From the IMG/VR virus record IMGVR_UViG_3300037313_000557, positions 1 to 41,439 of that record: 41,439 nt of DNA; one strand, written 5' to 3'. The notes beneath the pieces are model-generated. The model made no database searches and had not been told where the DNA came from. It was given only the letters and a program-made list of their open reading frames with translations. Source of the stretch: a virus. A program made the position numbers and the translations under genes. Positions 11,509 through 40,715 of this stretch are shown here, one piece after another (position 1 is the first letter of the stretch; each line of letters begins with the position of its first letter).

Positions 11509-11702
11509 CCCTGAATGCCTTCCGGCTCATCGGGCATAGGAGCCCAAGCCTTGGGTGAGCAGGGCCATGCACCCGGCGCCGACTGCCAGCCGAACGTGTT
11601 GTTGTAACGACCCGTCACGATCTTGTAGCGGGCCTTCGGGCCGTTCCAGAGCATGACAGTTGTTCCGTCCTTCGGGGCGGAGATCATCGTTCGCCAGTTC
11701 AT
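11505..11702 (-). CDS. hypothetical protein (DUF551-like pattern)
   Basis: 65 aa. WRTMISAPKDGTTVMLW resembles a common small phage protein motif. ATGA overlaps on both sides. Confidence 0.5.
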   Translation of the reverse strand: MNWRTMISAPKDGTTVMLWNGPKARYKIVTGRYNNTFGWQSAPGAWPCSPKAWAPMPDEPEGIQG

Positions 11703-25506: not shown

Positions 25507-25800
25507 ATGCCGAAACCAACGCTCTCTGTCCCCGACGACTTCGCCACATACGCTTCGATCGAAGGCAACCTGAAGCTCCGCAAGCGATACAATGTCGGGG
25601 GAGCAACAATCGAGCGTTGGCGTGCAACCATCGGTGCTCGGTATAATCGCCCGCCTATGCCCAAAAAGATACCGATCGCGACCAAGAAGCGCATTCGGCG
25701 TCGGTGGGAAGCACAGGAGCAAATCGAGGATCTGGACGACTTCGGTATCGATGACATCGCCCGGAGTTTCGACCTCAAGTCATTCGCATTGGAGTGGTAA
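25507..25800 (+). CDS. hypothetical basic protein, possible DNA-binding
   Basis: 97 aa with GAGAGG upstream. Basic centre KKIPIATKKRIRRRW. It is the last sizeable gene before the packaging genes. Confidence 0.5.
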   Translation: MPKPTLSVPDDFATYASIEGNLKLRKRYNVGGATIERWRATIGARYNRPPMPKKIPIATKKRIRRRWEAQEQIEDLDDFGIDDIARSFDLKSFALEW

Positions 25801-26103: not shown

Positions 26104-26433
26104 ATGGCATATCAGAAAGGACAATCTGGCAACCCCGGCGGCAGGCCAAAGATCGTCTTAGCGAACGGCAAGAGCCTCCGCGACCTAGCGCGCGAGCATA
26201 CGCAGGAATGCATTGAGGCTCTTGTTGGCATCGTCCGGGAAAGCGATAACGATACTGCCCGACGTAGCGCGGCTACGGATCTGCTTGATCGCGGCTGGGG
26301 TAAGCCGACCCAGCCGCTGAGTGGTGACGACAGCATGCCGCCTTTGGCATTGGGTAGCGCACCGGATGCGGTCATTGCCTGGCTTGCCGCTCAATCTCTT
26401 GGCGATGATGCTGAGACAACCAACCAAGGATGA
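26104..26433 (+). CDS. terminase small subunit-like protein (DUF5681-type N-terminus)
   Basis: QKGQSGNPGGRPK motif, located directly upstream of the large terminase. Confidence 0.55.
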   Translation: MAYQKGQSGNPGGRPKIVLANGKSLRDLAREHTQECIEALVGIVRESDNDTARRSAATDLLDRGWGKPTQPLSGDDSMPPLALGSAPDAVIAWLAAQSLGDDAETTNQG

Positions 26434-27825: not shown

Positions 27826-27851
27826 GAAAATACGCCATGACTATGCCTGAA
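27826..27851 (+). promoter_or_regulatory. late-region motif copy A: GAAAAT-N5-(A)TGACTATGCCTGAA
   Basis: The 14-mer TGACTATGCCTGAA is at 27838-27851. It includes the probable portal ATG (27837) and lies 20 nt after the terL stop. Confidence 0.5.
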
Positions 27852-29828
27852 CCGATTGACGAGAACCGCGACGGCATCGCGATTAGCGGCGCGTCTGACA
27901 CGCTACCCAAATACATCATCGGCACACCGCCTTCGATAGATTCGCTGCGTAAGCGCCGAGATGATGCCGCCAGCGATCCGAACGGGCGTAGGGCGAGGTC
28001 TAAGCTCAGCCGCGCATATTTCGATGGCAAAGGCCAGTTGAGCAGCCAAGTGCTCGCCGTTCTTGAGTTGCGAAAGCAGCCTCAGATATACACGAACCGC
28101 GTCCGTCCTGCTGTCAATGGCGTGCTTGGCGTACTCGAGAATGCGCGCTCTGATCCGCAGGCCTATCCGCGTAACCCAAATGATCAGGACAGCGCAGATG
28201 TGGTTACGAAGGTGCTGCGGTTTGTGGCGGACCAATCCGATTTCGCCGACATCAAGCAGGACGTGGCCGAAAACTTTCTTATCGAAGGCACTGGCGCGTG
28301 CATCATTGAAATGGACGGCGATGACATCGTTCCGACGCAAATTCGCTGGGAAGAATTCTATTGCGACCGATATTCTCGCCGCAATGACCGCAAGGATGCC
28401 CGGTTCATGGGCATCGCCAAGTGGGTCGATGTCGATCAGGTCAACAACAACCCGCGCTGGCAGCAGGCGATTTCCGACTATGGCAACATCATGCAGCCGG
28501 CGTCCAATGGCGCGTGGTCGAGCGATTTCGAGGACAGGGGTGATCAGGGGTTAGGCTGGATCAACACGCGCCGCCGTCGCGTCCTCTTGTGCGAGGAATA
28601 CGCGATCGAGCAAGGCGAGTGGAAGCGTCTCGTCTATATCGGCGCCTGCGTGCTGGAGTACGGCCCGAGCCCGTATCTCGACGAGAAGCGTCAGCCGTGC
28701 AATCCGATCGAGGTAGCGGCCTGCTACGTTGACGAGAACAACGACGCATACGGCATTGTAGATGACATGATGCCGCTGCAAGACGAGATCAATGCGTCGC
28801 GGTCACGGTCGTTGCATCTGATGAACTCGCGCCAGGTTCAAAACACCGACCCGACTGCCCCACCGATCGATGCCGGACTAGTACGTGACGAAGCGGCCAA
28901 GGCAGACGGCATCATTCCGATGGGCTGGCAGGTCATCCCGACGCAGGACATGACGCAAGCAAACATGCTGCGCAATCAGGAAGCCAAGGGCGAGATCGAG
29001 CGCATGGGACCGACGCCTGCGGTACTCGGCCGGCAAGAGAGTGCCGGGCAGTCGGGACGAGCACGACTTGTATCGCAGCAGGCCGGGCTTACCGAACTTG
29101 CCCGTCCGATTGCTCGCCTCAATAATTGGGAATTGCGAGTATATCGCCAAATCTGGCTGCGCGCGAAGCAGTTCAAGACGGATCCGTGGTTTATCCGCGT
29201 TACCGATGACGCGAGGGCACCTGAGTTCCTGACGGTCAATGAGCCGCAGATGGGCATGGTGATGCAACCTGTGGTGGGGCCAGATGGTCAGCCAGTCATC
29301 AATCCAGAGACGGGACAACCCGCAGTGCAGCCGTCAATGGGCATTGTGGGAATGAAACATCGCCTTGCCGAGCTTGACGTTGACATCATTCTGGACACGG
29401 TAGCCGACACCGCGACCCTTGCGCAGGAAGTATGGGCAGAGCTTGTCCAGTTGGTCGGGCAGGCTGGCGGGCTCCAAGTGGTCTATACGCCGGCATTCGA
29501 GCTGATGATCGAGGCCAGCCCGCTAGCCGACAAATCGCGCGTCATCGAGCTGATCAAGAAGGGTCGGCAGGAGATGGAGCAGAATCAGGTCCAGCAGCTT
29601 ACCCAGCAGTTGCAGGGCCTTCAGCAGCAGCTTGAGCAGATGGGTCAGGCGTTGAACCAGAAGCGCCAGATCAGTGACGCGGAAGCCGCTGCCAACGTGG
29701 ACAAGATCACCGCCGACACCTCGCTGACCCATGCCAAGCGTGAGGCGCAACAAGTCGATACGGAGCGGTCTGTTCTGGGGATCATGTCAGGCCACGAAAT
29801 CCCGCCGGCACAGCCCGGAACCGCTTGA
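27837..29828 (+). CDS. portal protein
   Basis: About 663 aa, directly after terL. It has an acidic N-terminus and a Gln-rich C-terminal coiled coil (QQLTQQLQGLQQQLEQMGQAL) like the barrel of P22-type portals. An alternative GTG lies at 27798. Confidence 0.75.
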   Translation: MTMPEPIDENRDGIAISGASDTLPKYIIGTPPSIDSLRKRRDDAASDPNGRRARSKLSRAYFDGKGQLSSQVLAVLELRKQPQIYTNRVRPAVNGVLGVLENARSDPQAYPRNPNDQDSADVVTKVLRFVADQSDFADIKQDVAENFLIEGTGACIIEMDGDDIVPTQIRWEEFYCDRYSRRNDRKDARFMGIAKWVDVDQVNNNPRWQQAISDYGNIMQPASNGAWSSDFEDRGDQGLGWINTRRRRVLLCEEYAIEQGEWKRLVYIGACVLEYGPSPYLDEKRQPCNPIEVAACYVDENNDAYGIVDDMMPLQDEINASRSRSLHLMNSRQVQNTDPTAPPIDAGLVRDEAAKADGIIPMGWQVIPTQDMTQANMLRNQEAKGEIERMGPTPAVLGRQESAGQSGRARLVSQQAGLTELARPIARLNNWELRVYRQIWLRAKQFKTDPWFIRVTDDARAPEFLTVNEPQMGMVMQPVVGPDGQPVINPETGQPAVQPSMGIVGMKHRLAELDVDIILDTVADTATLAQEVWAELVQLVGQAGGLQVVYTPAFELMIEASPLADKSRVIELIKKGRQEMEQNQVQQLTQQLQGLQQQLEQMGQALNQKRQISDAEAAANVDKITADTSLTHAKREAQQVDTERSVLGIMSGHEIPPAQPGTA

Positions 29829-29850
29829 CGCCCTAACTCGCCGCACCGGA

Positions 29851-29875
29851 CAATATTGTCGTGACTATGCCTGAA
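29851..29875 (+). promoter_or_regulatory. late-region motif copy B: CAATAT-N4-(G)TGACTATGCCTGAA
   Basis: The 14-mer is at 29862-29875 in the portal-scaffold gap. TTGACG lies at 29825-29830 upstream. Confidence 0.5.
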
Positions 29876-29983
29876 AGGCGCATGGCCATGTTCGGGGTGA
29901 TGGCCCCGTCAACAAACCATCCCTGCCACCGGGGCGCGGGTGCTGCGTAATGTCGCCGACGACACAGGCGAGGAAGGGTAAGG

Positions 29984-30748
29984 ATGGAAGGCGAAATCGA
30001 AGCGATGTTCCGCGCGGAAGCAGAGGGAGCTACCCCCGAGCAAGTGACGGAGCCCATCGTAGAGACGGCACCGGAAGCACCTACTGTTGAGCCTGTTGCT
30101 CAGCCTGAGGAGCAGCCGGAACCTTCGCCGGAGCCGATTCCTGAAGTCGATGCGCCAAAGGAAACCAAGCAAGTCCCGCTTGCGACGTTTTTGGACCAGC
30201 GCGACGAACTCAAGGAGGTCAGGCGCCGGTTGGCAGAGTTCGAAGCGTCAACGCGCGAACGCCCTGCTGCACCAAGCCCTTTTGATGATCCAGAGGGCTA
30301 TGCAGCGTATACTCAACAGGTCGTTGACGAGCGCCTGACGCAAGAGCGTTTCGCGATGAGCGACATGTTCGCGCGGCAGCAGCATGGGGCAGAGACGGTG
30401 GACAGTGCGGTGGAGTGGGCACAATCCCGTGCCCAGAGTGACCCGGCTTTCGCCATGTCCTACATGCGACAGCAGAATCCCATCGATTGGATCGTCCAGC
30501 AGCACCGCCAGAGCGAGGTGTTGGGGCAGATCGGCAATCGGCCATTGGATGACTTTATCCAGGACTACATCGCCAAGAACCCCGGCAAATTCGCTTCGGC
30601 ATCGGTTTCGGCAATCCCTGTCGAAACCGCCATGCAACCGGCTCCAAAGCCGCAGGCGCCGCCGAAGTCGATAGCGGGTGATGCAAGTCCAACCGCGAGC
30701 GCGCCGGCCGATCCGTCTGCATTTTGGAGCTTCCTCGATAGGAAGTAA
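29984..30748 (+). CDS. scaffolding protein
   Basis: 254 aa, acidic, with a Pro/Glu-rich N-terminus and a helical body. It sits between portal and capsid genes and has a strong RBS (GGAAGGGTAAGG). Confidence 0.6.
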   Translation: MEGEIEAMFRAEAEGATPEQVTEPIVETAPEAPTVEPVAQPEEQPEPSPEPIPEVDAPKETKQVPLATFLDQRDELKEVRRRLAEFEASTRERPAAPSPFDDPEGYAAYTQQVVDERLTQERFAMSDMFARQQHGAETVDSAVEWAQSRAQSDPAFAMSYMRQQNPIDWIVQQHRQSEVLGQIGNRPLDDFIQDYIAKNPGKFASASVSAIPVETAMQPAPKPQAPPKSIAGDASPTASAPADPSAFWSFLDRK

Positions 30749-30750
30749 CA

Positions 30751-31917
30751 ATGGCAGAAGTCGTCCTTGCCAATGCGCTGCAAGTTCAGCGCTGGAGCGA
30801 AGACCTAACGGTCGAATATATCCGCGAATCTGGCCTGATGCCCTACATGGGCACCGAAGGCACTTCAATTATCCGCGTCCGCAACGAACTGAAGAATGGC
30901 GCGGGCGACACGATCAACTTTCCGTTGCTCCAGCGCATCAAGGGGCGCGGCGTCGTCGGCTCCGAAGTGCTCAAGGGCAACGAAGCTGATCTGGGCCTCG
31001 CCAACACGGCGGTCACGGTCAACTGGAAGCGCAATGCGGTCAAGCTGCCCAAGTCCACGACGTTCCGCACGCCGCTGGACCTCTGGAACGCTGCAAAGCC
31101 ACAGCTTCGTTCGTGGTCGGCGGAGGCCCTCCGCGACGATACGCTGACGGCGTTTCAGTCGGTCATCGTCCCCGGCACGTTGGATGCGCAGGGCCTTCCG
31201 GGCACTGACACCAGCGTCAGCTACGCGCTCGCGACCGCGAGCCAGCGCAATACGTTCCTTGTGAACAACTCGGATCGTATCGTGATGGGAAACGCCCGCG
31301 CGAATATTTCGTCTGGCAACTGGGCGACATCGCTCGGTAACGTCACCACTGCGTCGGGCCAGTCGTCGGCTGCTCATCTTCGCTTGCTCAAGCAAATCGC
31401 GAAGAATGCGGGCCAGACCGTTCCAGCCGGTTCTACCACGGGCTACACCACCAACATTCGCCCGTACAAGTCGGACATGACGGCCGGCCGGGAGTGGTTT
31501 GTCTATTTCGTCGGCACGCGCGAGTTTGGCGTGCTGTCGCAGGATACCGCGATCCTGAATGCCAACCTCTACGCTCGCCCGCGTGAAGATGGCGCGGTGG
31601 ATAAGAACCCGCTCTTTCAGGATGGTGATCTGGTCTACCAGGGCATCCTCATTCGCGAAGTGCCGGAGATCGACAATCAGATCCTCGCGGGCGCGGGCGG
31701 CTCGGGTGCTGACTTGGCGTTCGGCTACTTCTGCGGCCAATCGGCGGTAGCGGTGGCTTATGGCCAGAACCCGAAGCTGATCGAGGACAAGGACGAGGAC
31801 TACGGTTTCCGTCCGGCTATCGCGATCGAGGAGCTTCGCGGCCTCGCTAAAACGAGCTTCGGCGGTGTCCAGTACGGCATGGTCGAGTCCATCACCGCCG
31901 TCCCGGCCCTGGCATAA
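30751..31917 (+). CDS. major capsid protein, N4-gp56 / DUF4043-type
   Basis: The pattern QRWSEDL...YMGTEGTSIIRV...GAGDTINFPLLQRIKGRGVVGSEVLKGNEADL matches the N-terminal signature of that capsid family. Confidence 0.75.
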   Translation: MAEVVLANALQVQRWSEDLTVEYIRESGLMPYMGTEGTSIIRVRNELKNGAGDTINFPLLQRIKGRGVVGSEVLKGNEADLGLANTAVTVNWKRNAVKLPKSTTFRTPLDLWNAAKPQLRSWSAEALRDDTLTAFQSVIVPGTLDAQGLPGTDTSVSYALATASQRNTFLVNNSDRIVMGNARANISSGNWATSLGNVTTASGQSSAAHLRLLKQIAKNAGQTVPAGSTTGYTTNIRPYKSDMTAGREWFVYFVGTREFGVLSQDTAILNANLYARPREDGAVDKNPLFQDGDLVYQGILIREVPEIDNQILAGAGGSGADLAFGYFCGQSAVAVAYGQNPKLIEDKDEDYGFRPAIAIEELRGLAKTSFGGVQYGMVESITAVPALA

Positions 31918-31930
31918 GGAGTAACTGACA

Positions 31931-32374
31931 GTGGCTAACTATCTCAGCCTCGAAACCACTCCTCCCGTCTACCCGATTTCGGGTGTTGGATTGGGTGGGC
32001 GCACGACCCATTGGGCGCGCGGCACATACACGATCTCAGCCGCTCTTGCCGCGTCGGATACGATCCAGTTGTTCGACTTGCCACGCAATGCGCGTGTCCT
32101 GTCTGGCGGTTTCATCAAGTCGGACGACCTCGATACGGGTGGCGCCGCTATCCGCATAAACGTCGGCGATGCAGGCTCGGCGAGTCGCTATTTCTCGGCG
32201 TCCGCAGCGGCCAGTACGGGCGCCGTTGATACCACGATGGCGTTTACCGGAGTGGATTACCTCAACACGGCAAAGACCCGCGTGTTCGCGACGGTTTCGG
32301 TGGCTCCGACCACCGGCGCCACGACCGGCACGATCACGGTTATGCTGCCGTATATTGTCGAGGAGCCGGCATAA
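31931..32374 (+). CDS. putative head decoration/cement protein
   Basis: 147-aa beta-rich protein directly after the capsid gene. GTG start with AAGGAG upstream. Confidence 0.4.
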   Translation: MANYLSLETTPPVYPISGVGLGGRTTHWARGTYTISAALAASDTIQLFDLPRNARVLSGGFIKSDDLDTGGAAIRINVGDAGSASRYFSASAAASTGAVDTTMAFTGVDYLNTAKTRVFATVSVAPTTGATTGTITVMLPYIVEEPA

Positions 32375-32748
32375 TGTCCAACTTCAAGGCGACGTGGCTG
32401 GGTGATACCGATCCCGGCGCACAGATCATCTTCATGGGCGATCTGCGCTTCATCAAGGGCGAGCCAACCACCGTCCCGGCAGACCATGAGTTTGCCGAGA
32501 TGATCAAGGGCAACCCGATCTTTTCGACCGAGGGCAAGGCGGAGGCTGTCAAGGCAGACGAGCCATCGGAAGATGAGCAGAACGCGGCTGCGGAACATGG
32601 GACCGTCAAGGGCCACCTGAAGGCTCAACTGAAGCTGCGCGGCGTTGAAGTGAGGGGCAATCCTTCAGAAGAGACGCTGCGCGCCAAGTTGGCGGAGGCG
32701 ACGAAGGACGAAACGTCCCCGCCCGCGATCGGAAACATGGTACTTTAA
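32374..32748 (+). CDS. hypothetical virion-module protein
   Basis: 124 aa with TAATG overlaps on both sides. Confidence 0.45.
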   Translation: MSNFKATWLGDTDPGAQIIFMGDLRFIKGEPTTVPADHEFAEMIKGNPIFSTEGKAEAVKADEPSEDEQNAAAEHGTVKGHLKAQLKLRGVEVRGNPSEETLRAKLAEATKDETSPPAIGNMVL

Positions 32749-33377
32749 TGGCGACCTGCCGTCACGTGATCAACGGTGCGCTGCGCAAGCTCGGAAGGCT
32801 TGGTGGCGGTCGTGAACCACGGACGGCAGACGCTACCGACGCACTGGCGGCGCTCCAGGGGCTTTACCTCTCCTGGATCGCTTCCGGCGCGTTTGGCCGT
32901 CTTCGGGATGTGATCGCGGACGCCGACATTACGGCGGCGGAAAATTGCCGCATCATTCGCGATGAAACTGTCGTGACCGTCACCCTGCCGGAGGTCGTGC
33001 CTAACTATTGCGACCCCCTGCCCTATAATCTGGAGACGGATTATTACGCGACCAGTCCGGTGGACGGCACAAACCGCCCTCCCCGCGATGGTTCGGTGAT
33101 CCAGATCAAGGACACTGTTGGCGGACAGGTTGCGAGCTACGTCTATGACGGCACGCTGCGCGAATGGACGCAGATCGAGCTATTGCAGATGGACAGCGAA
33201 GCGCCGCGCTCTGTTACGGACCCTGAGGGGCTGTCAGCGGTGCTAGCGATGGAGCTGGCGGACACGTTCGGCGCAGAGATCGGCCAGGCCACGCTAAGGC
33301 AGGCCGGACGCTTTACGATCGCCATGATCAACAACCCCTCCTCTCCCCGGCGCGAAGCTGCCGGGGTGTACATGTGA
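32748..33377 (+). CDS. P22 gp4-like head-to-tail adaptor (tail accessory factor)
   Basis: The N-terminus INGALRKLGRLGGGREPRTADATDALAALQGLYLSW parallels the P22 gp4 N-terminus (VRAALRKLGV...DA...L......W). Its position before the gp10-like gene also fits. Confidence 0.6.
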   Translation: MATCRHVINGALRKLGRLGGGREPRTADATDALAALQGLYLSWIASGAFGRLRDVIADADITAAENCRIIRDETVVTVTLPEVVPNYCDPLPYNLETDYYATSPVDGTNRPPRDGSVIQIKDTVGGQVASYVYDGTLREWTQIELLQMDSEAPRSVTDPEGLSAVLAMELADTFGAEIGQATLRQAGRFTIAMINNPSSPRREAAGVYM

Positions 33378-33383
33378 TCGCCC

Positions 33384-34718
33384 ATGCCGATCGTACCCCT
33401 AGGGCTCGGCGCGTATAAGCGATCGTCAGGGTTCGTCCCCGAAGTGCAGCTCCGCAACTTCTATCTTGAGCAGGATGTAACCGGCATCAGTCCCGACAAG
33501 ACGTTGCGGGTGCAGCGCCCCGGGCTGACTGCCTATCGCACGCTTCCTGGCGCCATTCGCGGGCTTAATTTCCGCGAGGCGACGGGAGAGACGTTCGCGG
33601 TCGCGGGCGGCACGCTCTACAATAGCGACACGGCATCGGGAGGAATTGCGGGTATCGACCAAACGCCGATGGTTTCGACGCCGTTCGGCTTGTTCATTGC
33701 GGGCGGTGGAACGCTCTACACCTACGATATAGCTCTATCGAGCATCGCCTTGCCCGATGATGCGCCGGACGGCGGTACAGTGCAGGATATCGACCAATTG
33801 GACGCCTATGTCCTGGTGCTTTTGCCAAGCGGGCGGTTCTATTGGATCGTTCCTGGCGCAACGACGATCGACCCGCTGAATTTCGCGACGGCGGAAAGCC
33901 TGCCGGATGGAGCGATGGCTATTCGACGGCTGGGGGATGAATTCATAATCCTCGGTACGCAGGGCGCGGAGATATGGCAGGCCACCGGCGACCCTGACGC
34001 GCCATTCCAGCGCGCTACGGGGCGTGGATACGAAAAGGGCTGCCTCTACCGCGATACGGTCGTCCGCTTCGACAACACGCTAGTTTGGGTAACCGATCAG
34101 TATGAGGTCTGTCGCGCGTCGGCGGTTCCTGAGGTGATTAGTGACCCCGCCCTTTCCGATCGCATTCGGCGCGCGACCGGCGATTGCTCGGCAATGACAT
34201 TCGCGATCGATGGGCATGACTTATGGCTCCTGCGTATTCCAGGCCAGGGAACATTTGCTTACGATGCCCTGACCAAAGCGTGGAGCGAGTTCGCGACCTA
34301 TCAGGAAAGCGTGTGGCGCCCTTGGGTGAGCATTCAGCATGACGGGCTGATTTTGGTCGGCTCGTCGGTTGACGGGAAAATCTATGAGGTAGATCCCGAA
34401 AGCGCGACCGATGACGGCGTGATGATCGAGCGCATAGTCAGCGCGACTGTCGGGCTCAATGCCAAGCCGCCGCGCAACGACAGCGTTTCGATCGGGGTAG
34501 GTTGCTCGGGCGATACGACGATCAGACTGCGGTGGAAGGACGGCCAGGACGACTTCCCAGCCTATTATGACGAGATCGAAGCGCGCGCGCCATTCGACGT
34601 GGCGCAATTGTGGCGGCTCGGCCAACCCGACCAGCCCTATAGGACGCTGGAAATAAGCTGCGTTGCGGCCGAGAAGATCAGCCTGTTCGGCATGATTGCT
34701 AACGATGCGTGGGCCTGA
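33384..34718 (+). CDS. P22 gp10-like tail hub / packaged-DNA stabilisation protein
   Basis: 444 aa. MPIVPLG..., NFATAESLPDGAMAIRRLGDEFIILGTQGAEIWQATG and MTFAIDGHDLWLLRIPGQGTFAYD parallel remembered P22 gp10 segments. Confidence 0.65.
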   Translation: MPIVPLGLGAYKRSSGFVPEVQLRNFYLEQDVTGISPDKTLRVQRPGLTAYRTLPGAIRGLNFREATGETFAVAGGTLYNSDTASGGIAGIDQTPMVSTPFGLFIAGGGTLYTYDIALSSIALPDDAPDGGTVQDIDQLDAYVLVLLPSGRFYWIVPGATTIDPLNFATAESLPDGAMAIRRLGDEFIILGTQGAEIWQATGDPDAPFQRATGRGYEKGCLYRDTVVRFDNTLVWVTDQYEVCRASAVPEVISDPALSDRIRRATGDCSAMTFAIDGHDLWLLRIPGQGTFAYDALTKAWSEFATYQESVWRPWVSIQHDGLILVGSSVDGKIYEVDPESATDDGVMIERIVSATVGLNAKPPRNDSVSIGVGCSGDTTIRLRWKDGQDDFPAYYDEIEARAPFDVAQLWRLGQPDQPYRTLEISCVAAEKISLFGMIANDAWA

Positions 34719-35329
34719 TGGCTGACTTTGTCCGCATTCCGGCACTGAGCCAGCGCAACCCGGCGGTCGATAAAGACGGGCGGTTTACCAATGTCACGCT
34801 ACGGACGTTGAACGATGCTTTGGAGGGGCTGGCAACCGCCATCAATGCCATTGCCGCGCTCCCCGAGATACAGGCCGCGCTGGCCGCACTGGACGCGGCT
34901 ACGGCGGCAGCTCAAGCGGCGGCAGACAATGCCAACGCGGCGGCTACGGCAACCACCAACGCAACGTCCCTCGCTAATAGCTATGTGTCGGGATTGACCC
35001 TCACCGCCACGGACGCGGGTTCGAGCGCTACGATCACTATTTCCGCCCATACCCGCGTATATGGCGATGGCGCTTCCGTTAGCGTGTCCGGGGGTTCTTT
35101 GACCGGGTTGGCCTACGACACGACTTATTACATCTATTACGATCAGCCCAGTCGCGCCGGTGGCTCTGTCACCTATCAAAGCACAACCGATCCTACGTTA
35201 GCGGCGCAAACCGGTGATAGGCATGTCGTTGGTTCCACCAACACACCGCTGGCAGCAGGCGCGCCGATCGACGGAAATCCGGTGCTCCCGCCAGGGTCAG
35301 GCGCCATCCTGCACAAAGAGCTCCTATGA
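34718..35329 (+). CDS. tail needle (P22 gp26-like) coiled-coil protein
   Basis: MADF... start in a TGATG overlap, followed by an Ala-rich coiled coil and a beta-rich C-terminal knob. Position after the gp10-like gene fits. Confidence 0.5.
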   Translation: MADFVRIPALSQRNPAVDKDGRFTNVTLRTLNDALEGLATAINAIAALPEIQAALAALDAATAAAQAAADNANAAATATTNATSLANSYVSGLTLTATDAGSSATITISAHTRVYGDGASVSVSGGSLTGLAYDTTYYIYYDQPSRAGGSVTYQSTTDPTLAAQTGDRHVVGSTNTPLAAGAPIDGNPVLPPGSGAILHKELL

Positions 35330-35757
35330 TCCGTCGCGTCCTGGATCCAGATATCGTCAACACTATCGCGAATGAAGGCAGCGTGCGCGAGATGATGTTT
35401 CTCGGCATGACATACCCGTTGCATGACCTCGATTTTTCGGATTGCATCGAAAACCAGCAAAACGTCTGCCTGATCGACAACAAGGGCTTTTGCTCCATTT
35501 TTCAGTGGAGCGCGCCCGGCGTCTATGAATGCCATATCATGGCGCCAAAGGCAGCGCGAGGAGTCTCATGCATGGCGTCGGCGCACGAAATGCTGGCCTT
35601 CATGAAGCAGATGGGCGCTAGAATGGTTTGGGGTCGCCCTTCGATCTACAATCGGGCCGCCATATGCTTTATCCGCCGAATGGGCCTGAAAGCGGCCGGT
35701 TTCGGTCAGGATGCTGCGGCTGGTGACGTGCAGTATTTCGTGACGGAGGACTTGTAG
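35326..35757 (+). CDS. hypothetical protein at the P22 gp14-equivalent position (possible acetyltransferase-like fold)
   Basis: 143-aa ORF. The pattern ECHIMAPKAARG...NRAAICFIRRMGLKAAG loosely resembles GNAT-like phage proteins. Confidence 0.35.
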   Translation: MIRRVLDPDIVNTIANEGSVREMMFLGMTYPLHDLDFSDCIENQQNVCLIDNKGFCSIFQWSAPGVYECHIMAPKAARGVSCMASAHEMLAFMKQMGARMVWGRPSIYNRAAICFIRRMGLKAAGFGQDAAAGDVQYFVTEDL

Positions 35758-36494
35758 TGCCGCCTGTAGTCATCGCAGCAGGAATCGCGGCCGGCGGATC
35801 GATCCTTGGGGGCGCTATCGCTTCCGGGAGCGCCAGCAAGGCGGCAAAAGCGCAGCAATCCGTTGCGCAGCAGCAGATCGCCGCCAACAATGAGAACCGA
35901 CAGTTCATCACCGGGCTTGAGCAGCCGAACATCGATCGCGGCAATTGGGCTGGTGACACCTATGCCGGATTGCTCGGCAAGGGCGACGCGGCTAGTTCAC
36001 AAAAAGCGCTGGATACTTGGCGAAATTCGATCAGCTATCAGGACTTGCTCAAGACCGGCATGGATGCCGTCAACAGCAACGCCTATGCGCGCGGACTTGG
36101 TGATAGTGGAGCTACGTACAAAGCGCTTCAGGCGAAGGGCCAGTCTCTCGCAAACCAGACGCAGGGCATTTATATGTCCAACCTCAACAACCTGATCCAG
36201 ACGGGCAATAGCGCGATCGGGAACGTGGCCGGGGTGGCGACCCAGACGACGGGCGCGAATAACGCGGCATTGCAGGGCAGCGCCGATGCTCAATCGAACG
36301 CGGCCCTAATGTCGGGTGCTGGTTGGCAAAACGCGATCAAGAACCTGACGAACATCGGGTCCAGTCTTGCGACGAGCTTCGGCGGCGGTTCGCACACCTC
36401 CGGGGCGCCGATCAGCGCGACGATGCCGGGCTATGGGGCATTCAACCCGATGCAGCCCATCGGTTATTTCGGGGGCAACGGCTTTGGCGGTTGA
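35757..36494 (+). CDS. ejection/internal virion protein (P22 gp7-equivalent position)
   Basis: 245 aa with an N-terminal hydrophobic Gly/Ala segment and a low-complexity Gly/Ala/Asn/Gln-rich body. TAGTG overlap. Confidence 0.5.
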   Translation: MPPVVIAAGIAAGGSILGGAIASGSASKAAKAQQSVAQQQIAANNENRQFITGLEQPNIDRGNWAGDTYAGLLGKGDAASSQKALDTWRNSISYQDLLKTGMDAVNSNAYARGLGDSGATYKALQAKGQSLANQTQGIYMSNLNNLIQTGNSAIGNVAGVATQTTGANNAALQGSADAQSNAALMSGAGWQNAIKNLTNIGSSLATSFGGGSHTSGAPISATMPGYGAFNPMQPIGYFGGNGFGG

Positions 36495-38256
36495 TTGGCA
36501 GCTCGGTCGGCCTGAAGGTGGTCCATACGACTACCTCCAGAGCCTCCAGCAGATGGGCCAGATTGCGGCTCAGAAGCAGGCGCTCGGCCAAAATCAATAC
36601 AATTTCAACCGTCAGCGCGTGGCCGATCAACAGCGTCCGCAGATACTCCAACAGGCGCGTGGTGGGGATTATGCCGGCGCTCAGAACACCGCATTTGCCA
36701 ATGGCGATATGGATGCGATCAAGTTCGTCAGCGGGCTTCAGGAAACGCAGCGCGCCCAGCTCGGCCAGCATGCTGACGCAATCGCAGCTGTGGCGGCGAA
36801 TCTGGCTAAGCTTCCGGCTGATCAGCGGCGAGCAGCTTTGGCTGCTGCCGCGCCCGGTTTGCAGCGCTTCGGCTTTACGCCCGACGAAATCGCAGCGGCC
36901 GATGTGAGCGACGCAGGATTGACTGGGTATATTTCGGCAGCCTCCTCCACCAAGAGTGCGCTCGAAAGCTACTATGACAGCCAGAAGCCGCTTACCGTCG
37001 CGGACGGTGCACAGGTGTTCGGCGCAACCCCAATGGGTGGCGGTCAGCGCCCGCTTATCGCTGAGAACGTCAAGGACCCGCCAAAGCCGGATTACGTCCT
37101 TGATACCGAAACCGGGCAATGGCTGCTCAAGCCGGGGACGGGTAGCGCTGGTGTGCCAGGGGCTATCCCAGGCTATGGGGCCATGGCTCCATCTACGGGG
37201 GGAGGTGATCTAGTATCTCGGATGATCCCGATTACTTTGGGAAGCGAGGGCGGGGGATCGCTCACCAATCCCAAGACCAGCCCAAAGGGCGCGCGCGGAC
37301 CGATGCAGGTCATGCCGGGCACGAACGTCAGTCCAGGTTTCGGGGTGGCGCCGGCCGCTGACAATAGCGAAGCGGAGCGCGCTCGGGTTGGTCGGGATTA
37401 TCTGGCAGCCATGATGGAGCGCTATAACGGCGATCCGGCGAAGGCTTGGGCTGCGTATAATGCGGGGCCAGGTCGGGTTGACCGCTTGATCGCGAAGAAT
37501 GGCGACCGCTGGATGTTCGGACTGCCGCAAGAGACGCAAGACTATGTTCAAAAGAACATGGCCGCACTCGGACGCAATCCCGCCCAACCAACCGCGTCCG
37601 TGTCTCCGACCGGCCTTCCCACTGCGATCTATGCGCGGCCTCCTAAGCGGAAAGATGCTCCTGCCGGCTATGAGTATGGCGAGGACGGCAAGGCGCTGCG
37701 TCCGATTCCAGGCGGCCCCGCAGATCCAAACACGCCGACCTCACGCAATGTGCAAAGCAATCGCAAGGCCGAGACTGACTACCGCAAAGAGTTCGAGCAG
37801 CGGCAGGATGTCAAGTCGTTCATTACGGCTCGGAACCAGTATTATGCGCTGCGGAAAACGGCACTCAATCCGAACGCAACGGCAGCCGATGATATTTCTT
37901 CGGTCTATTCATTCATGAAAGCGCTCGATCCGCAGTCGGTTGTTCGCGAGGGTGAGTTTGCGACCGCACAGAACGCTACCGGCGTTCCCGACCGCATGAA
38001 GAATTATTACAACCAGATGCTGAAGGGCACGCGCCTAAACGCCAATCAGCGGCAGGATATGGTCAACACCGCATACCGCAATTATTCAGTCATGCGCGAC
38101 AACTACAACAACGTTGCGACCCAATATCGCGGCTACGCGCAGTCGGCGGGCGTCAACCCGGACAATGTCGCGCGTACCTATACCATCGATGAAAAGAAAC
38201 CCAACGCGTCGCGTCCACAGCCCAAGCCGGGCTGGAAGATCGTGGAGCGTAAATAA
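36484..38256 (+). CDS. ejection/internal virion protein with lytic transglycosylase (SLT) domain
   Basis: LGSEGGGS...GARGPMQVMPGT...YLAAMMERYNGDPAKAWAAYNAGPGRV is an SLT signature. The start is uncertain (TTG at 36484 or ATG at 36553). Confidence 0.65.
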   Translation: MAVDWQLGRPEGGPYDYLQSLQQMGQIAAQKQALGQNQYNFNRQRVADQQRPQILQQARGGDYAGAQNTAFANGDMDAIKFVSGLQETQRAQLGQHADAIAAVAANLAKLPADQRRAALAAAAPGLQRFGFTPDEIAAADVSDAGLTGYISAASSTKSALESYYDSQKPLTVADGAQVFGATPMGGGQRPLIAENVKDPPKPDYVLDTETGQWLLKPGTGSAGVPGAIPGYGAMAPSTGGGDLVSRMIPITLGSEGGGSLTNPKTSPKGARGPMQVMPGTNVSPGFGVAPAADNSEAERARVGRDYLAAMMERYNGDPAKAWAAYNAGPGRVDRLIAKNGDRWMFGLPQETQDYVQKNMAALGRNPAQPTASVSPTGLPTAIYARPPKRKDAPAGYEYGEDGKALRPIPGGPADPNTPTSRNVQSNRKAETDYRKEFEQRQDVKSFITARNQYYALRKTALNPNATAADDISSVYSFMKALDPQSVVREGEFATAQNATGVPDRMKNYYNQMLKGTRLNANQRQDMVNTAYRNYSVMRDNYNNVATQYRGYAQSAGVNPDNVARTYTIDEKKPNASRPQPKPGWKIVERK

Positions 38257-40193
38257 TGGCCCGCAAGCTCTCCGTCACCGCACCGAACGGCAAGACGTAC
38301 GATATTGAGGCCCCGGACAATGCGACGGACGATGAGATTCACGCTGAGGTGTTGCGCGTGCATCCTGAAGCGGCAGGGATGGATGCTTCCGGTGATCCAT
38401 CGTCTGACATCATCGCCAGCATGGCGGCCCCAGACTCCGGTGGAACTTCTGTTGGCCCTGACGGCAAGATGGTGGTCGATATCGTCGGCGGCCATCTGCC
38501 CTCGCCAGGCGAGGAAGGGTACGACGCCTATATCAAGGCTGGGTATCAGACCGACCCGCAAGGCAACATTGTTCCGAAAGAGCCAGACCAACGCCCGGTA
38601 TCGCAGTCGCAGGGTTTTTCGGAGGGATTCGAAAAGCCAGCAAACAATGCGGCGGATTGGGTCACGACTGGCCTCAACAAGACCATCCCATCCGCGCGCG
38701 ATATAGCTACAGGGAACCTCGATCTTTCGATGCTCGCCGACCCCTCCGCGCTGATCAAAGGTGCTCTTGGTGGTCTGTCGTATGCGGGTGCGGCGCTTGA
38801 GGGCAACGGCAACCTGCAAGCCGGTGATGCCATCAACAAGTTCGGTGCAGAGACGCTGGGCATGGCGCCAAGCATACAGGCCGCGCGTGATACGCAACAG
38901 CAGGCCCGCGACCGGTCCCCCTATCAGAGCGGAGGGCTCGGGAAGTTCGCCGGTGAGCTAACCGGGGCAGTACTGTTGAGCCGTCTGCCAGGCGGGGCAT
39001 TTTCGCAAGGCGCCCAGGGCGGCGCGTTGCTGACGGATACGCCGAACGATGCGCTGGGCGTGGCCAAGGATGCCGCGATCGGCGGGACGGTCGGGAAGGC
39101 GGGTGCGGCAGTTCTAGGGGCCGCCGGACGTGCTGCGGCCCCGGCGATCAATGACGGGCTGCGCACACTGCTGGATGCCGGCATCCGCGTGACGCCTGGA
39201 CAGGCCGCGCGTGCCGGCGGGGGGTTCGGTCGGGTCATAGGCGGCGTTGAAGATAAGGCCATGTCTCGGCCATTCGTCGGCGGGATGATCACCAATGCCC
39301 GCAATCAGTCGCTGGACGATTTTGCGCGCGCTACGATCAATCGCAGCGTAGAACCGATCGGCGCGAAGCTCCCCGATAGCATTTCGCTGGAAACGACCGC
39401 TGGGGCTCGCAGTGCCGTGCGCTGGGCTGGGGACAAACTGTCCGATGCGTTTGAGCAGATTAAGCCGCGCATCCGCGTGCAGGCAAACGATCCGGCGTTT
39501 CTGGACGATCTCACGACCGTCCGAAACGATCTCGTGTCTGACATGCATCCCGCCCGGATCAAGCAATATGACAACATCCTGAAGGGGCTCGGTCGGTTCT
39601 GGCAGGACGGAACGGAGCTTTCTGGACAAGCATATAAGGATGTCGAAAGCCGGCTGACGCGCAATATCAATCAGTTTGCTCGCGGCGATGGCGATCAGCA
39701 GCAGCTTTCGCGTGCCTTGGAGAGCGTGCGCGATGCCTTGACGGACCTTGCTGAGCGCCAAAACCCTGACGTTGCAGCGACCCTTAAATCGCTCAACACG
39801 GGCTGGAAGTCGCTCACGCAAGTTGAGCGTGCGGCAGGAACGAGCAAGGGGTTGCCGACGCCTGCCGGGTATAGCCAAGCCGTGAAGATGAGCAGCGATA
39901 CGGTCCGGCGTCGTGGCTATTCGCGCGGTACGGCGCTTAATCAGGATTTGAGCGACGCGGCGTCAGACATCTTGCCCAGCTCGATTGCCGATAGCGGCAC
40001 AGCCGGCCGAATTGGCGGCATCCGTGCCGGAGCGGTGGGTCTTGCACAAGCTCTGCCCTATCTGGCTGCGCAGAAAGTCACACCTCTGCTTCTGCGCCAG
40101 AACGGAGCGTCACCGGCGCTTGCGAAGCTGCTTGAATATGGCGCGCGCAGCGTTCCCTACGTAGCGCCCCCCTTGATAAGCCAATACCGATAG
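38256..40193 (+). CDS. large ejection/internal virion protein (P22 gp16-equivalent position)
   Basis: 645 aa with a TAATG overlap, a Gly/Ala-rich central hydrophobic region, and position as the last gene of the tail-machine block. Confidence 0.5.
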   Translation: MARKLSVTAPNGKTYDIEAPDNATDDEIHAEVLRVHPEAAGMDASGDPSSDIIASMAAPDSGGTSVGPDGKMVVDIVGGHLPSPGEEGYDAYIKAGYQTDPQGNIVPKEPDQRPVSQSQGFSEGFEKPANNAADWVTTGLNKTIPSARDIATGNLDLSMLADPSALIKGALGGLSYAGAALEGNGNLQAGDAINKFGAETLGMAPSIQAARDTQQQARDRSPYQSGGLGKFAGELTGAVLLSRLPGGAFSQGAQGGALLTDTPNDALGVAKDAAIGGTVGKAGAAVLGAAGRAAAPAINDGLRTLLDAGIRVTPGQAARAGGGFGRVIGGVEDKAMSRPFVGGMITNARNQSLDDFARATINRSVEPIGAKLPDSISLETTAGARSAVRWAGDKLSDAFEQIKPRIRVQANDPAFLDDLTTVRNDLVSDMHPARIKQYDNILKGLGRFWQDGTELSGQAYKDVESRLTRNINQFARGDGDQQQLSRALESVRDALTDLAERQNPDVAATLKSLNTGWKSLTQVERAAGTSKGLPTPAGYSQAVKMSSDTVRRRGYSRGTALNQDLSDAASDILPSSIADSGTAGRIGGIRAGAVGLAQALPYLAAQKVTPLLLRQNGASPALAKLLEYGARSVPYVAPPLISQYR

Positions 40194-40279
40194 GGACCGT
40201 CTGCGCCAACGGCGCGTATCTGCCCAAGCAGTCGTGATGATGGCTGCTGTGCCGGCAGCCAACGCAGAGCCCAGCGACA

Positions 40280-40648
40280 CTATTTCGGGCCTTGTGGGGC
40301 GCATGAACGATCGACATAGCGGATCGCTCGGCCTGTATACTCCCGGCGCGACCAGGCCCACGCGGTCATGTGCTTGTCGCCTCTGGTAACCAAAACGACC
40401 GCGTCGGCGCCAGCCTTTTGGGCTTCGCGGCGGAACTTGGCGAAAATCTTCCCGCGCGTGTCCGCATTGTAATCCTCCGTGACGTTGACCGATACCGGCT
40501 GGACGACGCGATAAGGGCAAGTCCGCACATCGGCGCTCGTGACCATTATGCCCCCATCAAAGGTTGCATCGTCGTTTCCGACCTCTTGAGCGAATGAAGG
40601 GAAAGTCAGCACGACCAGCATGGCGGTCGACAAGTGAATGAGCTTCAT
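40280..40648 (-). CDS. secreted/periplasmic moron protein (signal peptide MKLIHLSTAMLVVLTFPSFA)
   Basis: This is the only reverse-strand gene inside the late region. It has a cleavable-type signal peptide, and the C-terminal pattern REAQKAGADAVVLV loosely resembles small periplasmic stress/YbjQ or DUF1471-like proteins. Confidence 0.6.
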   Translation of the reverse strand: MKLIHLSTAMLVVLTFPSFAQEVGNDDATFDGGIMVTSADVRTCPYRVVQPVSVNVTEDYNADTRGKIFAKFRREAQKAGADAVVLVTRGDKHMTAWAWSRREYTGRAIRYVDRSCAPQGPK

Positions 40649-40679
40649 GCGGCGTTAGATAGCATGCCCCGCGTCGTTC

Positions 40680-40705
40680 TAAAATACCCCGTGACTATGC
40701 CTGAA
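40680..40705 (+). promoter_or_regulatory. late-region motif copy C: TAAAAT-N5-(G)TGACTATGCCTGAA
   Basis: The 14-mer is at 40692-40705, 11 nt upstream of the tail fibre 1 ATG. Here it forms the loop of a 7-bp hairpin, TACCCCG/CGGGGTA. Confidence 0.5.
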
Positions 40706-40715
40706 CGGGGTACAG

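What the first reader, a model, noticed from the sequence alone, without database searches (positions are those of the whole stretch)
27826..40705. Perfectly conserved 14-mer TGACTATGCCTGAA, preceded by a -10-like hexamer, at three late-gene boundaries
The 14-mer occurs exactly three times that I can find:
- 27838-27851, at the portal start just after terL.
- 29862-29875, between portal and scaffold.
- 40692-40705, just upstream of tail fibre 1 and divergent from the moron.

Each copy is preceded by an A/T-rich hexamer with the key -10 positions (GAAAAT, CAATAT, TAAAAT). The hexamer lies 4-5 nt before an (A/G)TG that starts the motif. Copies A and C share 24 of 28 positions.

The spacing fits a promoter whose transcript begins at or next to the (A/G)TG. 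That would give a leaderless portal mRNA (MTMPEP...) and a conserved initial transcribed sequence. This sequence contains a -10-like GACTAT, the kind of element used for sigma-dependent promoter-proximal pausing in lambdoid late regulation.

No Q-like antiterminator is recognisable, so this may mark a phage-specific late-promoter or activator-site class. Alternatively it could be an RNA processing site or a recombination linker at module boundaries.
Basis: partly seen in the sequence, partly recalled or inferred. Interest (0 to 1): 0.62.

Follow-up and report, generated by a model that had tools for sequence, protein, structure and literature searches.

The report
Phage late promoters sharing a start-site box
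The repeated 14-mer is the local form of an 11-base box that follows a promoter-like -10 hexamer at five late-gene module boundaries in this uncultured temperate phage and about 18 relatives, so it most likely marks a lineage-specific class of late promoters read by an unidentified phage factor.

Summary
TGACTATGCCTGAA occurs exactly three times, on the + strand only.

Related phages show the conserved unit is shorter and two-part:
- a -10-type hexamer (NANNNT: TATAAT, TACAAT, GACAAT, GAAAAT, TAAAAT);
- 8-12 unconserved, G+C-rich bases;
- a near-invariant box, CTATGC(C/T)(T/C)RAW.

The window has five such sites, and each sits in the same place in the relatives:
- S0, inside a 97-aa HTH gene before terS;
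- S1, at the portal start;
- S2, after the portal stop;
- S4, before the ejection genes;
- S3, before the tail-fibre genes.

At S0, synonymous positions are frozen to keep the hexamer and box. At S2, a covarying hairpin begins at the start point predicted from the hexamer. Both support real promoters that start 1-5 nt before the box.

The box is absent from four alphaproteobacterial genomes and has no unusual 16S complementarity. It occurs only with the novel 97-aa HTH protein, my candidate binder (inferred).

No Q or AlpA homologue and no terminators were found.

Verdict: a new variant of phage late-promoter control; the mechanism is unproven.

The parts
25642..25665 (+). Site S0. It consists of the -10-type hexamer TATAAT (25642-25647), an 8-nt spacer and the box CTATGCCCAAA (25655-25665). 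It lies inside the 97-aa HTH gene, and the box ATG encodes the invariant Met51. It is the predicted promoter for the packaging genes (small ORFs, terS, terL).
   Evidence: Present at the same codons in 15 relatives. Third-codon positions are frozen: codon -1 is xCT in 15 of 15 despite four different amino acids; Asn is AAT in 14 of 15 where AAC is preferred elsewhere; Lys is AAA in 14 of 15 where AAG is preferred elsewhere.
27826..27851 (+). Site S1. It consists of the hexamer GAAAAT (27826-27831), a 10-nt spacer and the box CTATGCCTGAA (27841-27851). The box ATG at 27843 is the portal start codon and has no Shine-Dalgarno sequence.
   Evidence: Portal alignments start at this Met in relatives. 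In L043, L049, L060 and L062 the box ATG instead opens a 6-codon uORF whose stop overlaps the portal ATG. In L046 and L048 the box is followed by an SD plus ATG.
29825..29875 (+). Site S2. It consists of the -35 element TTGACG (29825-29830, overlapping the portal stop), an 18-bp spacer, the hexamer GACAAT (29849-29854), an 11-nt spacer and the box CTATGCCTGAA (29865-29875). The predicted start is the G at 29861.
   Evidence: TTGACN-18-GA(C/A)AAT is found in most of the 15 genomes examined; L059 instead has CATAAT with no TTGAC at 18 bp. RNA begun at the 7th or 8th base after the hexamer starts with a hairpin at nt 1-2 in 14 of 15 genomes, and its stem covaries.
29861..29983 (+). Non-coding, structured leader of about 120 nt between S2 and the scaffold gene (29984-30748).
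   Evidence: uORF length and frame are not conserved, ranging from 12 to 62 codons. There are conserved hairpins with compensatory changes, including one directly before the scaffold SD. No Rfam family matches.
35647..35672 (+). Site S4. It consists of the hexamer TACAAT (35647-35652), a 10-nt spacer and the degenerate box ATATGCTTTAT (35662-35672). It lies 85 nt before the first ejection-protein gene (35757).
   Evidence: A hexamer plus a box-like element lies in the same position, just before the homologous ejection gene, in all six genomes.
40680..40711 (+). Site S3. It consists of the hexamer TAAAAT (40680-40685) and the box CTATGCCTGAA (40695-40705). The box is flanked by the inverted repeat ACCCCG (40686-40691) / CGGGGT (40706-40711), whose 3' arm is the SD of the tail-fibre gene (ATG at 40716).
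   Evidence: The site precedes the tail-fibre gene in all six genomes. The inverted repeat covaries, for example CCCTGAA/TTCAGGG in G003.
25507..25800 (+). Gene for a 97-aa protein with an N-terminal HTH followed by a basic-then-acidic helix. It is the last gene before the packaging genes and is my candidate box-binding late regulator (inferred, not shown).
   Evidence: It is the only regulator-like gene shared by all box-bearing phages and is undetectable in 19 box-less relatives. It has no Pfam, PHROG or NCBIfam hit. The AF2 model has pLDDT 74 and no PDB fold match at E<0.8. Its HTH module recurs as 2-4 tandem copies in other proteins.

Best explanation
The five sites are the late promoters of this phage lineage, one in front of each late module:
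- S0: packaging genes;
- S1: portal;
- S2: scaffold, capsid and head completion;
- S4: ejection proteins;
- S3: tail fibres and lysis.

Host sigma70-type RNA polymerase recognises the NANNNT hexamer as a -10 element. Only S2 has a good -35. Transcription starts 6-8 bp downstream of the hexamer, so the invariant box CTATGCYYRAW occupies roughly +2/+6 to +12/+16.

I take the box to be a duplex-DNA recognition site for a phage-encoded late factor that acts on polymerase at or just after initiation. The most likely factor is the conserved 97-aa HTH protein encoded immediately upstream. That would make these otherwise weak or silent promoters late-specific.

The ATG inside the box has been put to secondary use. 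It is the SD-less portal start, or the start of a 6-codon coupling uORF. At S0 it is an in-frame Met of the HTH gene.

Shown: the motif anatomy, its conservation, its strand and position bias, nucleotide-level selection at S0, and a hairpin that begins at the predicted start at S2.

Inferred: promoter activity, the start points, the identity of the factor, and whether it activates.
For: - Statistics and strand bias.
- The same five positions hold in six genomes, and S0-S2 hold in about 12 further contigs, despite 43-70% protein divergence and exchanged portal and terminase alleles.
- The hexamer varies the way -10 elements do, with A2 and T6 fixed. The box is invariant and the spacer is free in both sequence and length, 8-12 nt.
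- At S0, inside a gene, synonymous sites keep the hexamer T, the xCT before ATG, CCY and AAA, against the local codon preference.
- At S2, TTGACN-18-GACAAT is present. The 7th or 8th base after the hexamer is a G in 13 of 15 genomes. A covarying hairpin starts exactly there in 14 of 15.
- The box is paired in different registers in different genomes yet never changes. This argues for recognition as DNA rather than as a folded RNA.
- The box is not a host feature. AAT-N8-12-box gave 0 hits in four alphaproteobacterial genomes, and there is no special 16S complementarity.
- The HTH-97 gene co-occurs with the box. It sits where late regulators usually sit in temperate phages, directly before terS; this last point is from established knowledge of lambda Q and RinA-type activators.
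- A distant clade with HTH-97 at 47% identity carries a variant box, GGATATGCCCGAAA, at S1 and S2.
Against:
- A factor site just downstream of the start point is the usual place for a repressor, not an activator.
- The variable hexamer-to-box distance argues against a rigid activator-polymerase contact.
- Co-occurrence of HTH-97 with the box is confounded by shared ancestry.
- HTH-97 has no detectable relation to any known late regulator.
- S2 has a near-consensus -35 and might not need activation.
- The invariant ATG, its use as the portal start, and the fixed 6-codon uORF point to a role in translation as well.
Confidence: 0.45

Rival explanations
1. The box works in RNA. It would be the 5'-proximal translation-initiation cassette of very short-leader late mRNAs (5'-N3-6-AUG-CCU-RAW). 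Ribosomes would load at the SD-less AUG, either to make the protein directly or, through a short uORF, to pass to the next start.
For: - The box AUG is the portal start in most genomes and has no SD.
- A uORF of exactly 6 codons, with its stop overlapping the portal ATG, is found in L043, L049, L060 and L062.
- The box AUG is in frame and invariant as Met-Pro-Lys in HTH-97.
- The predicted 5' ends at S0, S1 and S3 are unstructured, with the AUG at +4 to +7.
- Nearby leftward genes look truly leaderless, so the host probably handles such mRNAs (inspection of the sequences).
Against: - At S2 the AUG is buried in the 5' hairpin. The uORF there is not conserved, and the scaffold gene has its own SD 120 nt downstream.
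- In L046 and L048 the portal has its own SD after the box.
- Nothing known about translation explains why the two bases before and the seven after the AUG are invariant.
- There is no special 16S complementarity.
- The AUG is 9-13 nt from the hexamer, too far for a true leaderless start.
Confidence: 0.2
2. This is a Q/AlpA-like system. The core TATGCY would be a second -10-like element that holds sigma-bound polymerase in a promoter-proximal pause. A small phage protein would then load there and make polymerase resistant to termination.
For: - There are two tandem -10-like elements 8-12 nt apart, as in the late promoters of lambda, 21 and 82 (established knowledge; PMC6606751, PMC9191641).
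- At S4 of G002 the upstream hexamer is itself TATGCT.
- A small HTH antiterminator has a precedent in AlpA (PMC9371919).
- Q21-like antitermination occurs in alphaproteobacterial phage-derived elements (bioRxiv 10.1101/2024.11.20.624540; PMC11150451).
- The regulator-like gene sits directly upstream.
Against: - 20 of 24 boxes have C, not T, at hexamer position 6.
- There is no separate conserved Q-binding element in the spacer.
- No intrinsic terminators follow the sites.
- There are five sites per genome, where one would suffice.
- No Q or AlpA family hit and no fold match were found.
Confidence: 0.15
3. The box is an operator. A repressor bound just downstream of the start point would keep constitutive sigma70 late promoters shut in the lysogen or early in infection, in the manner of a roadblock or stoperator.
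For: - The position, +2 to +13, is typical of repressor sites.
- The site is asymmetric, has a single orientation and occurs in several copies, like the stoperators of mycobacteriophage L5 (established knowledge).
- S2 has a near-consensus -35 and -10 and would need silencing.
- The variable spacing is compatible with simple occlusion.
Against: - There is no box at the early or immunity promoters around 18.4-19.5 kb, so the prophage repressor is not the binder.
- No second repressor gene is conserved across the clade.
- The only conserved candidate lies at the end of the early operon, where activators normally lie.
Confidence: 0.12
4. The repeats are recombination linkers or gene-conversion tracts at module boundaries, with no role in expression.
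For: - The sites lie at module boundaries.
- Within the window the three 14-mers, and 24 of 26 nt of S1 and S3, are identical, which suggests some homogenisation within the genome.
- The relatives are mosaic.
Against: - Similarity breakpoints between mosaic relatives lie about 100 nt or more from the boxes.
- The constant partner hexamer, the strand bias and the selection on synonymous sites at S0 are not expected of linkers.
Confidence: 0.03

Closest known systems
Lambdoid late promoters PR' with their qut sites (Q of lambda, 21 and 82), and the P. aeruginosa AlpA/PalpB system
   Same: - A sigma70 promoter is followed within about 10 nt by a second conserved element in the initially transcribed region.
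- The regulator gene lies directly upstream of the late genes.
- In the AlpA case the factor is a small HTH protein.
   Different: - There are five sites per genome instead of one.
- The box lacks the NANNNT signature in most copies.
- There is no separate factor-binding element between -35 and -10.
- No downstream terminators were found.
- The candidate protein is unrelated in sequence and in predicted fold.
Late or middle promoters defined by a -10 element plus a phage-specific box (T4 MotA box at -30, P1 Lpa box at -22, P2 Ogr and Mu C sites); from established knowledge
   Same: - Several late promoters per genome share a host-type -10 element and a short box specific to the phage lineage.
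- The box replaces a good -35.
- The box is read by a small phage regulator.
   Different: In those systems the box is upstream of the -10. Here it is downstream, overlapping the first transcribed bases and an ATG.
Mycobacteriophage L5 stoperators and Cluster K start-associated sequences (SAS); from established knowledge
   Same: - An asymmetric motif of 11-13 bp is repeated in one orientation relative to transcription.
- It sits at gene boundaries or gene starts.
- It is conserved across a phage cluster.
   Different: - Stoperators number about 30, match the repressor's operator at the early promoter, and are not paired with a -10.
- SAS lie upstream of start codons and include the ribosome-binding site.
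- Here there are five copies, confined to the late region, each 8-12 nt after a -10 hexamer and containing the start codon itself.
GafY-binding element of the Caulobacter crescentus GTA promoter (PMC11150451)
   Same: - Mutating ACTATG in the GafY element abolishes GafY binding, and the window's 14-mer contains ACTATG.
- The window encodes a 72-aa DnaA-domain-IV (GafY-like) protein at 22639-22857.
   Different: - The GafY element lies about 120 bp upstream of the start and works with IHF.
- The DnaA-IV gene is present only in the window and G001. It is absent from four complete genomes that carry the box.
- The A before CTATG is not conserved.
- I treat this as a six-base coincidence.

Membership tests
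Housekeeping-sigma (sigma70-type) promoter | -10 hexamer with A at position 2 and T at position 6 | tested here: met
   All the listed sites but one carry NANNNT (TATAAT, TACAAT, TACACT, TACGCT, GACAAT, GAAAAT, GATAAT, TAAAAT, TAAACT, TAGAAT, TAGACT, CATAAT). The one clear exception is TATAAC at S0 of L046/L048; the hexamers at S4 of G002, G003 and G005 were read by eye.
Housekeeping-sigma (sigma70-type) promoter | -35 hexamer 16-18 bp upstream | tested here: inconclusive
   S2 has TTGACN at 18 bp in most of the 15 genomes examined, with L059 the exception. S3 has only TAGATA. S0, S1 and S4 have none by inspection.
Housekeeping-sigma (sigma70-type) promoter | Transcript 5' end 6-8 nt after the -10 | not testable with these tools
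Indirect support comes from the covarying 5' hairpin at S2, which begins at the predicted +1 or +2.
Q/AlpA-type antitermination site | Q, AlpA or related antiterminator gene | tested here: not met
   No Pfam, PHROG or NCBIfam hit among the right-arm proteins. The HTH-97 model has no PDB match at E<0.8.
Q/AlpA-type antitermination site | -10-like NANNNT pause element in the initially transcribed region | tested here: inconclusive
   The core is TATGCC in 20 of 24 sites and TATGCT in 4 of 24. A2 is present, but T6 usually is not.
Q/AlpA-type antitermination site | Terminator downstream of the loading site | tested here: not met
   No convincing + strand intrinsic terminator lies after any site, and the count does not exceed that in shuffles. 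Rho-dependent sites cannot be tested.
Leaderless mRNA | Start codon at the transcript 5' end (-10 ends 6-8 nt before the ATG) | tested here: not met
   The ATG lies 9-13 nt after the hexamer, so a leader of 3-6 nt is predicted. The window's own (A/G)TG at the right distance is not conserved in relatives.
Leaderless mRNA | No Shine-Dalgarno sequence before the start codon | tested here: met
   The spacers before the box ATG are C-rich and lack GGAG-like runs.
Stoperator-type repressor sites (mycobacteriophage L5) | The same asymmetric site also serves as the operator at the repressor-controlled early promoter | tested here: not met
   No box-like sequence scoring 9 or more lies in the immunity or early region of any of the six genomes.
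GafY/GafA-controlled promoters of alphaproteobacterial GTAs | DnaA-domain-IV activator present wherever the site is present | tested here: not met
   PF08299 is found only in the window and G001. It is absent from complete genomes G002-G005, which carry the box.

The most novel reading that the evidence does not exclude
The 97-aa HTH protein founds a new class of small late regulators. It would recognise an 11-bp box placed in the first transcribed bases of every late promoter and would engage sigma-bound polymerase there. This is neither a classical upstream activator nor a single-site Q protein.

The first box lies inside the regulator's own gene. Late transcription from S0 would therefore also yield a near-leaderless mRNA for an HTH-less 47-aa C-terminal fragment (MPKK...ALEW, an arginine-rich then acidic helix). 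That fragment could feed back on the regulator or on polymerase.
Probability: 0.2. Interest if true: 0.75.

Novelty: new variant of a known kind. Interest (0 to 1): 0.55.

Why it matters
- **An unusual layout.** Phage late promoters with lineage-specific boxes are familiar. In the cases compared here (T4, P1, P2, Mu, lambda) the box lies upstream of or within the core promoter, or the system has a single Q-type site. Here the invariant box sits just after the start point, contains a working start codon, is repeated before every late module, and is embedded once in the coding sequence of the likely regulator.
- **A possible new regulator family.** If the 97-aa HTH protein binds the box, it defines a new regulator family and a new way of marking late transcripts.
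- **Practical use.** The box gives a transcription map for an uncultured phage group. It corrects the portal start from MTMPEP to MPEP. It also provides a short, testable promoter-and-regulator pair for alphaproteobacterial genetics.

Tried and rejected
- **Cultured relatives.** None were found by DNA or by HTH-97 protein search. The portal's best match among deposited phages is about 40% identical, in cyanophages.
- **Host feature.** AAT-N8-12-CTATGCCTRAW is absent from four alphaproteobacterial genomes.
- **16S rRNA pairing.** The best duplex energy is -11.9 kcal/mol, against a mean of -14.2 for shuffled boxes.
- **Known RNA families.** No Rfam family lies near the sites.
- **DnaA-domain-IV (GafY-like) protein as the binder.** Rejected because four complete box-bearing genomes lack it.
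- **RNA loop recognition (boxB/N-like).** The S2 and S3 hairpins are real, but the box sits in a loop, a stem or both depending on the genome, and the loops differ (GCCUA, GCCUGA, GAAA).
- **The box as the true -10, with the hexamer as a -35.** The spacing of 8-12 nt is too short and too variable. The portal ATG would also lie upstream of the start.
- **The box as an upstream activator site for a promoter further downstream.** No -10-like hexamer follows the box, and at S3 the gene begins 11 nt after the box.
- **Recombination linker.** Mosaic breakpoints do not coincide with the boxes.
- **Host identification through HTH-97.** No hit in 401 Sphingomonadales genomes. The host remains unknown. 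More distant portal relatives are prophages of Sphingomonadales and Caulobacterales.
- **Fold of HTH-97.** The model is moderate (pLDDT 74). The nearest PDB folds are generic HTH regulators such as KorA and sigma domain 4, all at E>0.8.


Full report
**What the window is**

The window is a complete viral contig. Bases 1-127 repeat at 41313-41439, and the record is classed as having direct terminal repeats. G+C is about 60%.

The late arm is P22-like in its order:
- a 97-aa HTH gene (25507-25800);
- small ORFs;
- a DUF5681 terS-like gene (26104-26433);
- terL (ending at 27817);
- portal (27843-29828);
- scaffold (29984-30748);
- major capsid protein (30751-31917);
- head-completion genes;
- three ejection-protein genes (35757-40193);
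- one leftward gene (40280-40648);
- tail-fibre genes that run across the contig ends, then lysis genes.

**Checking the observation**

The 14-mer occurs exactly three times, at the stated coordinates and on the + strand only. No further copy appears at up to three mismatches. The expectation at up to two mismatches is 0.16. The flanking hexamers are as described. Copies A and C share 24 of 26 bases.

**What is conserved**

The portal protein found nine related viral contigs. The 97-aa protein found 18, partly the same contigs. Three more came from exact protein look-ups. I fetched five relatives whole; four of them are complete genomes.

In these relatives the 14-mer as such is not conserved. 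A shorter two-part unit is:
- a hexamer of the form NANNNT;
- 8-12 unconserved, C/G-rich bases;
- the box C-TATGC-(C/T)-(T/C)-R-A-W.

In 24 aligned sites the seven positions CTATGC are invariant apart from the last being C or T. The spacer shows no conservation.

A weight matrix of the box separates true sites (13-22 bits) from background. Only two other positions in six genomes score above 12 bits, and both are the S4 sites of G002 and G004. No minus-strand hit exceeds 12 bits. Random first-order Markov sequences give 0.3-0.6 boxes per genome on both strands together. The late strand alone has 3-5.

A distant branch (L058 and L059, HTH protein 47% identical) carries the variant GGATATGCCCGAAA behind TAGAAT and CATAAT, at the portal start and the portal end.

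**Where the sites lie**

Mapping window proteins onto the six genomes shows five syntenic sites:
- S0, inside the HTH gene;
- S1, at the portal start;
- S2, just after the portal stop;
- S4, just before the first ejection-protein gene, where the box is degenerate;
- S3, in the divergent intergenic region before the tail-fibre genes.

In the window S0 is at 25642-25665 and S4 at 35647-35672. Each late module therefore has its own site.

**Evidence that the hexamer is a working -10 element**

1. The hexamer varies as -10 elements do. A2 and T6 are fixed, and positions 4 and 5 are mostly A.
2. S2 has TTGACN 18 bp upstream in most of the 15 genomes examined. L059 is the exception.
3. S0 lies in a coding sequence, so silent positions can be read.
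   - The Asn codon that supplies the hexamer's last base is AAT in 14 of 15 genomes. Asn elsewhere in the gene is mostly AAC.
   - The codon before the box ATG encodes Pro, Thr, Ala or His. It ends in T in 15 of 15 and is xCT in 14 of 15.
   - The Lys after Met-Pro is AAA in 14 of 15, although Lys elsewhere is mostly AAG.
   - Other fourfold-degenerate sites in the gene have 1.5-1.9 bits of entropy.
   - This is selection on the nucleotides, not on the protein.
4. At S2, the 7th base after the hexamer (the 8th where the spacer is 12) is a G in 13 of 15 genomes. RNA begun there folds into a hairpin whose first pair is nucleotide 1 or 2 in 14 of 15 genomes. The stem changes by compensatory substitutions:
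   - GCGGCUAU/AUAGCCGU;
   - GCCGCUAU/AUAGCGGU;
   - GUCGC/GCGAC;
   - GCGCCUAU/AUAGGUCGC;
   - AGCCUA/UAGGC.

A stem-loop flush with the 5' end is a known mRNA-stabilising device (established knowledge). That it begins at the start point predicted from the hexamer is hard to explain otherwise.

**What the box is not**

- It is not a general host signal. There were no hits in four alphaproteobacterial genomes.
- It does not pair unusually well with 16S rRNA.
- It matches no Rfam family.
- It is not a mosaic breakpoint.
- It is not a true leaderless start. The ATG lies 9-13 nt after the hexamer, giving predicted leaders of 3-6 nt. The window's own ATG or GTG at the 5' edge of the 14-mer is absent from relatives.
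- It is a poor sigma-dependent pause element. The core is TATGCC in 20 of 24 sites and so lacks the T at position 6.
- No + strand terminators follow the sites.

**DNA site or RNA signal?**

The ATG of the box is used in translation.
- It is the portal start in the window and most relatives.
- In L043, L049, L060 and L062 it opens a uORF of exactly six codons whose TGA overlaps the portal ATG.
- At S0 it is the invariant Met51 of the HTH protein.
- The predicted 5' ends at S0, S1 and S3 are unstructured.

At S2 the picture differs.
- The same box is buried in the terminal hairpin.
- Its uORF is not conserved.
- The scaffold gene has its own SD behind a structured 120-nt leader.
- In L046 and L048 the portal has its own SD after the box.

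The box is also paired in different registers in different genomes without ever changing.

A function common to all sites is therefore more likely to be read on DNA, or during initiation. I take the ATG to be a secondary use.

**Who reads it**

The right-arm genes are mosaic. Of the 13 window right-arm proteins tested, only the 97-aa HTH protein is present in all six genomes. It also retrieves every other box-bearing contig. It is undetectable in 19 more distant, box-less portal relatives, although this contrast is confounded by ancestry.

What is known about the protein:
- It has no Pfam, PHROG or NCBIfam match.
- The AF2 model (pLDDT 74) shows a three-helix HTH followed by a long basic-then-acidic helix.
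- There is no significant PDB fold match.
- A profile search shows that its N-terminal 45 residues are a module found in 2-4 tandem copies in about 240-aa proteins. These proteins hit generic HTH families weakly. This fits a monomeric reader of a short asymmetric site.
- Its gene lies directly before the packaging genes, where lambda Q and RinA-type activators lie in their phages (established knowledge).

A tempting lead was a 72-aa DnaA-domain-IV protein (22639-22857). This is the fold of the Caulobacter GTA activator GafY (PMC9632790), whose binding element is destroyed by mutating ACTATG (PMC11150451). But four complete box-bearing genomes lack this gene, so it cannot be the general binder.

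**Mechanism, with odds**

| Reading | Odds |
|---|---|
| Five late promoters whose start-site box is a DNA site for a phage late factor, probably HTH-97, acting on polymerase at or just after initiation | about 0.45 |
| RNA-level translation cassette | 0.20 |
| Q/AlpA-like pause-and-load antitermination | 0.15 |
| Operator for a late-gene repressor | 0.12 |
| Recombination linker | 0.03 |

The promoter reading as such, whatever the box does, I put at about 0.8.

**Unexplained**

In RNA read through from upstream, each box would be buried.
- At S1 in the window, the terL end GGCUAGUCAU pairs with AUGACUA-GCC.
- At S2, the spacer between -35 and -10 (CCCCGCUUCGGAC) pairs with GUUCGAGCGGGG downstream.
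- At S3, a covarying inverted repeat starts one base after TAAAAT and ends in the SD of the tail-fibre gene.

Locally started RNA would lack the upstream arm. This may distinguish read-through transcripts from locally initiated ones, but I could not test it.

**Comparison and novelty**

The system resembles lambdoid qut sites and AlpA in placing a second element in the first transcribed bases (PMC6606751, PMC9371919). It resembles T4, P1, P2 and Mu late promoters in pairing a host -10 with a phage box at several promoters (established knowledge). It resembles L5 stoperators and Cluster K start-associated sequences as an oriented motif at gene boundaries (established knowledge). It fails defining tests for each of these; see the membership table.

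Two earlier notes of this scan describe strand-specific late-boundary motifs in other phages, read as near-leaderless late promoters. They agree in kind but are not independent evidence.

I class the finding as a new variant of a known kind. No experiment or transcript data bear on it yet.

Noticed in passing
window 22639-22857 (+): A 72-aa stand-alone DnaA domain IV protein (PF08299, 43 bits, above the cut-off), the fold of the Caulobacter GTA activator GafY/HdaB. It overlaps the start of a 312-aa gene of unknown function (22854-23792). It is present only here and in the closest relative, G001.
   Followed up: partly
window 29861-29983 (+), and the same region in 13 relatives: The roughly 120-nt leader of the scaffold gene is non-coding and structured. 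A conserved hairpin UCGCC-GACGAYACA-GGCGA with compensatory changes sits directly before the SD. No Rfam family matches. It may autoregulate the scaffold gene, as in P22.
   Followed up: partly
window 40646-40670 (- strand); G002 and G005 at the equivalent place: The leftward gene next to S3 appears to be truly leaderless. A -10-like TATCTA, TATAGC or TATAGT, preceded by TGC, ends 6-7 nt before its ATG, and there is no SD.
   Followed up: no
L013 9804, 11929 and 17190 (Rhizorhabdus histidinilytica prophage): A more distant relative without HTH-97 or the box has its own repeat, GCTCTAAAGCA. In the portal-scaffold gap it lies 19 nt upstream of CATAAT. This may be a different late-promoter box in the same place.
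   Followed up: no
proteins P0043, P0047 and P0035: The N-terminal HTH module of the 97-aa protein occurs as 2-4 tandem repeats in about 180-250-aa proteins. These share a conserved C-terminal domain (GRAA..LR...PVYR....G....G..W..G...LT..E....A...G). The family is unannotated; one member is from Sphingomonas sp.
   Followed up: partly
proteins P0068 and P0078: Public gene calls include a 47-aa product equal to the C-terminal half of the HTH protein, starting at the box ATG. They also include a 46-aa natural deletion variant that lacks the recognition helix and the S0 region.
   Followed up: no
window 1-127 and 41313-41439: There is an exact 127-nt terminal overlap. The first tail-fibre gene (40716 onwards) continues at base 1 and ends at 918.
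   Followed up: yes
window about 11530-11539 (- strand): There is a single box-like CTATGCCCGA on the early strand without a credible -10 hexamer. It is probably a chance match.
   Followed up: no
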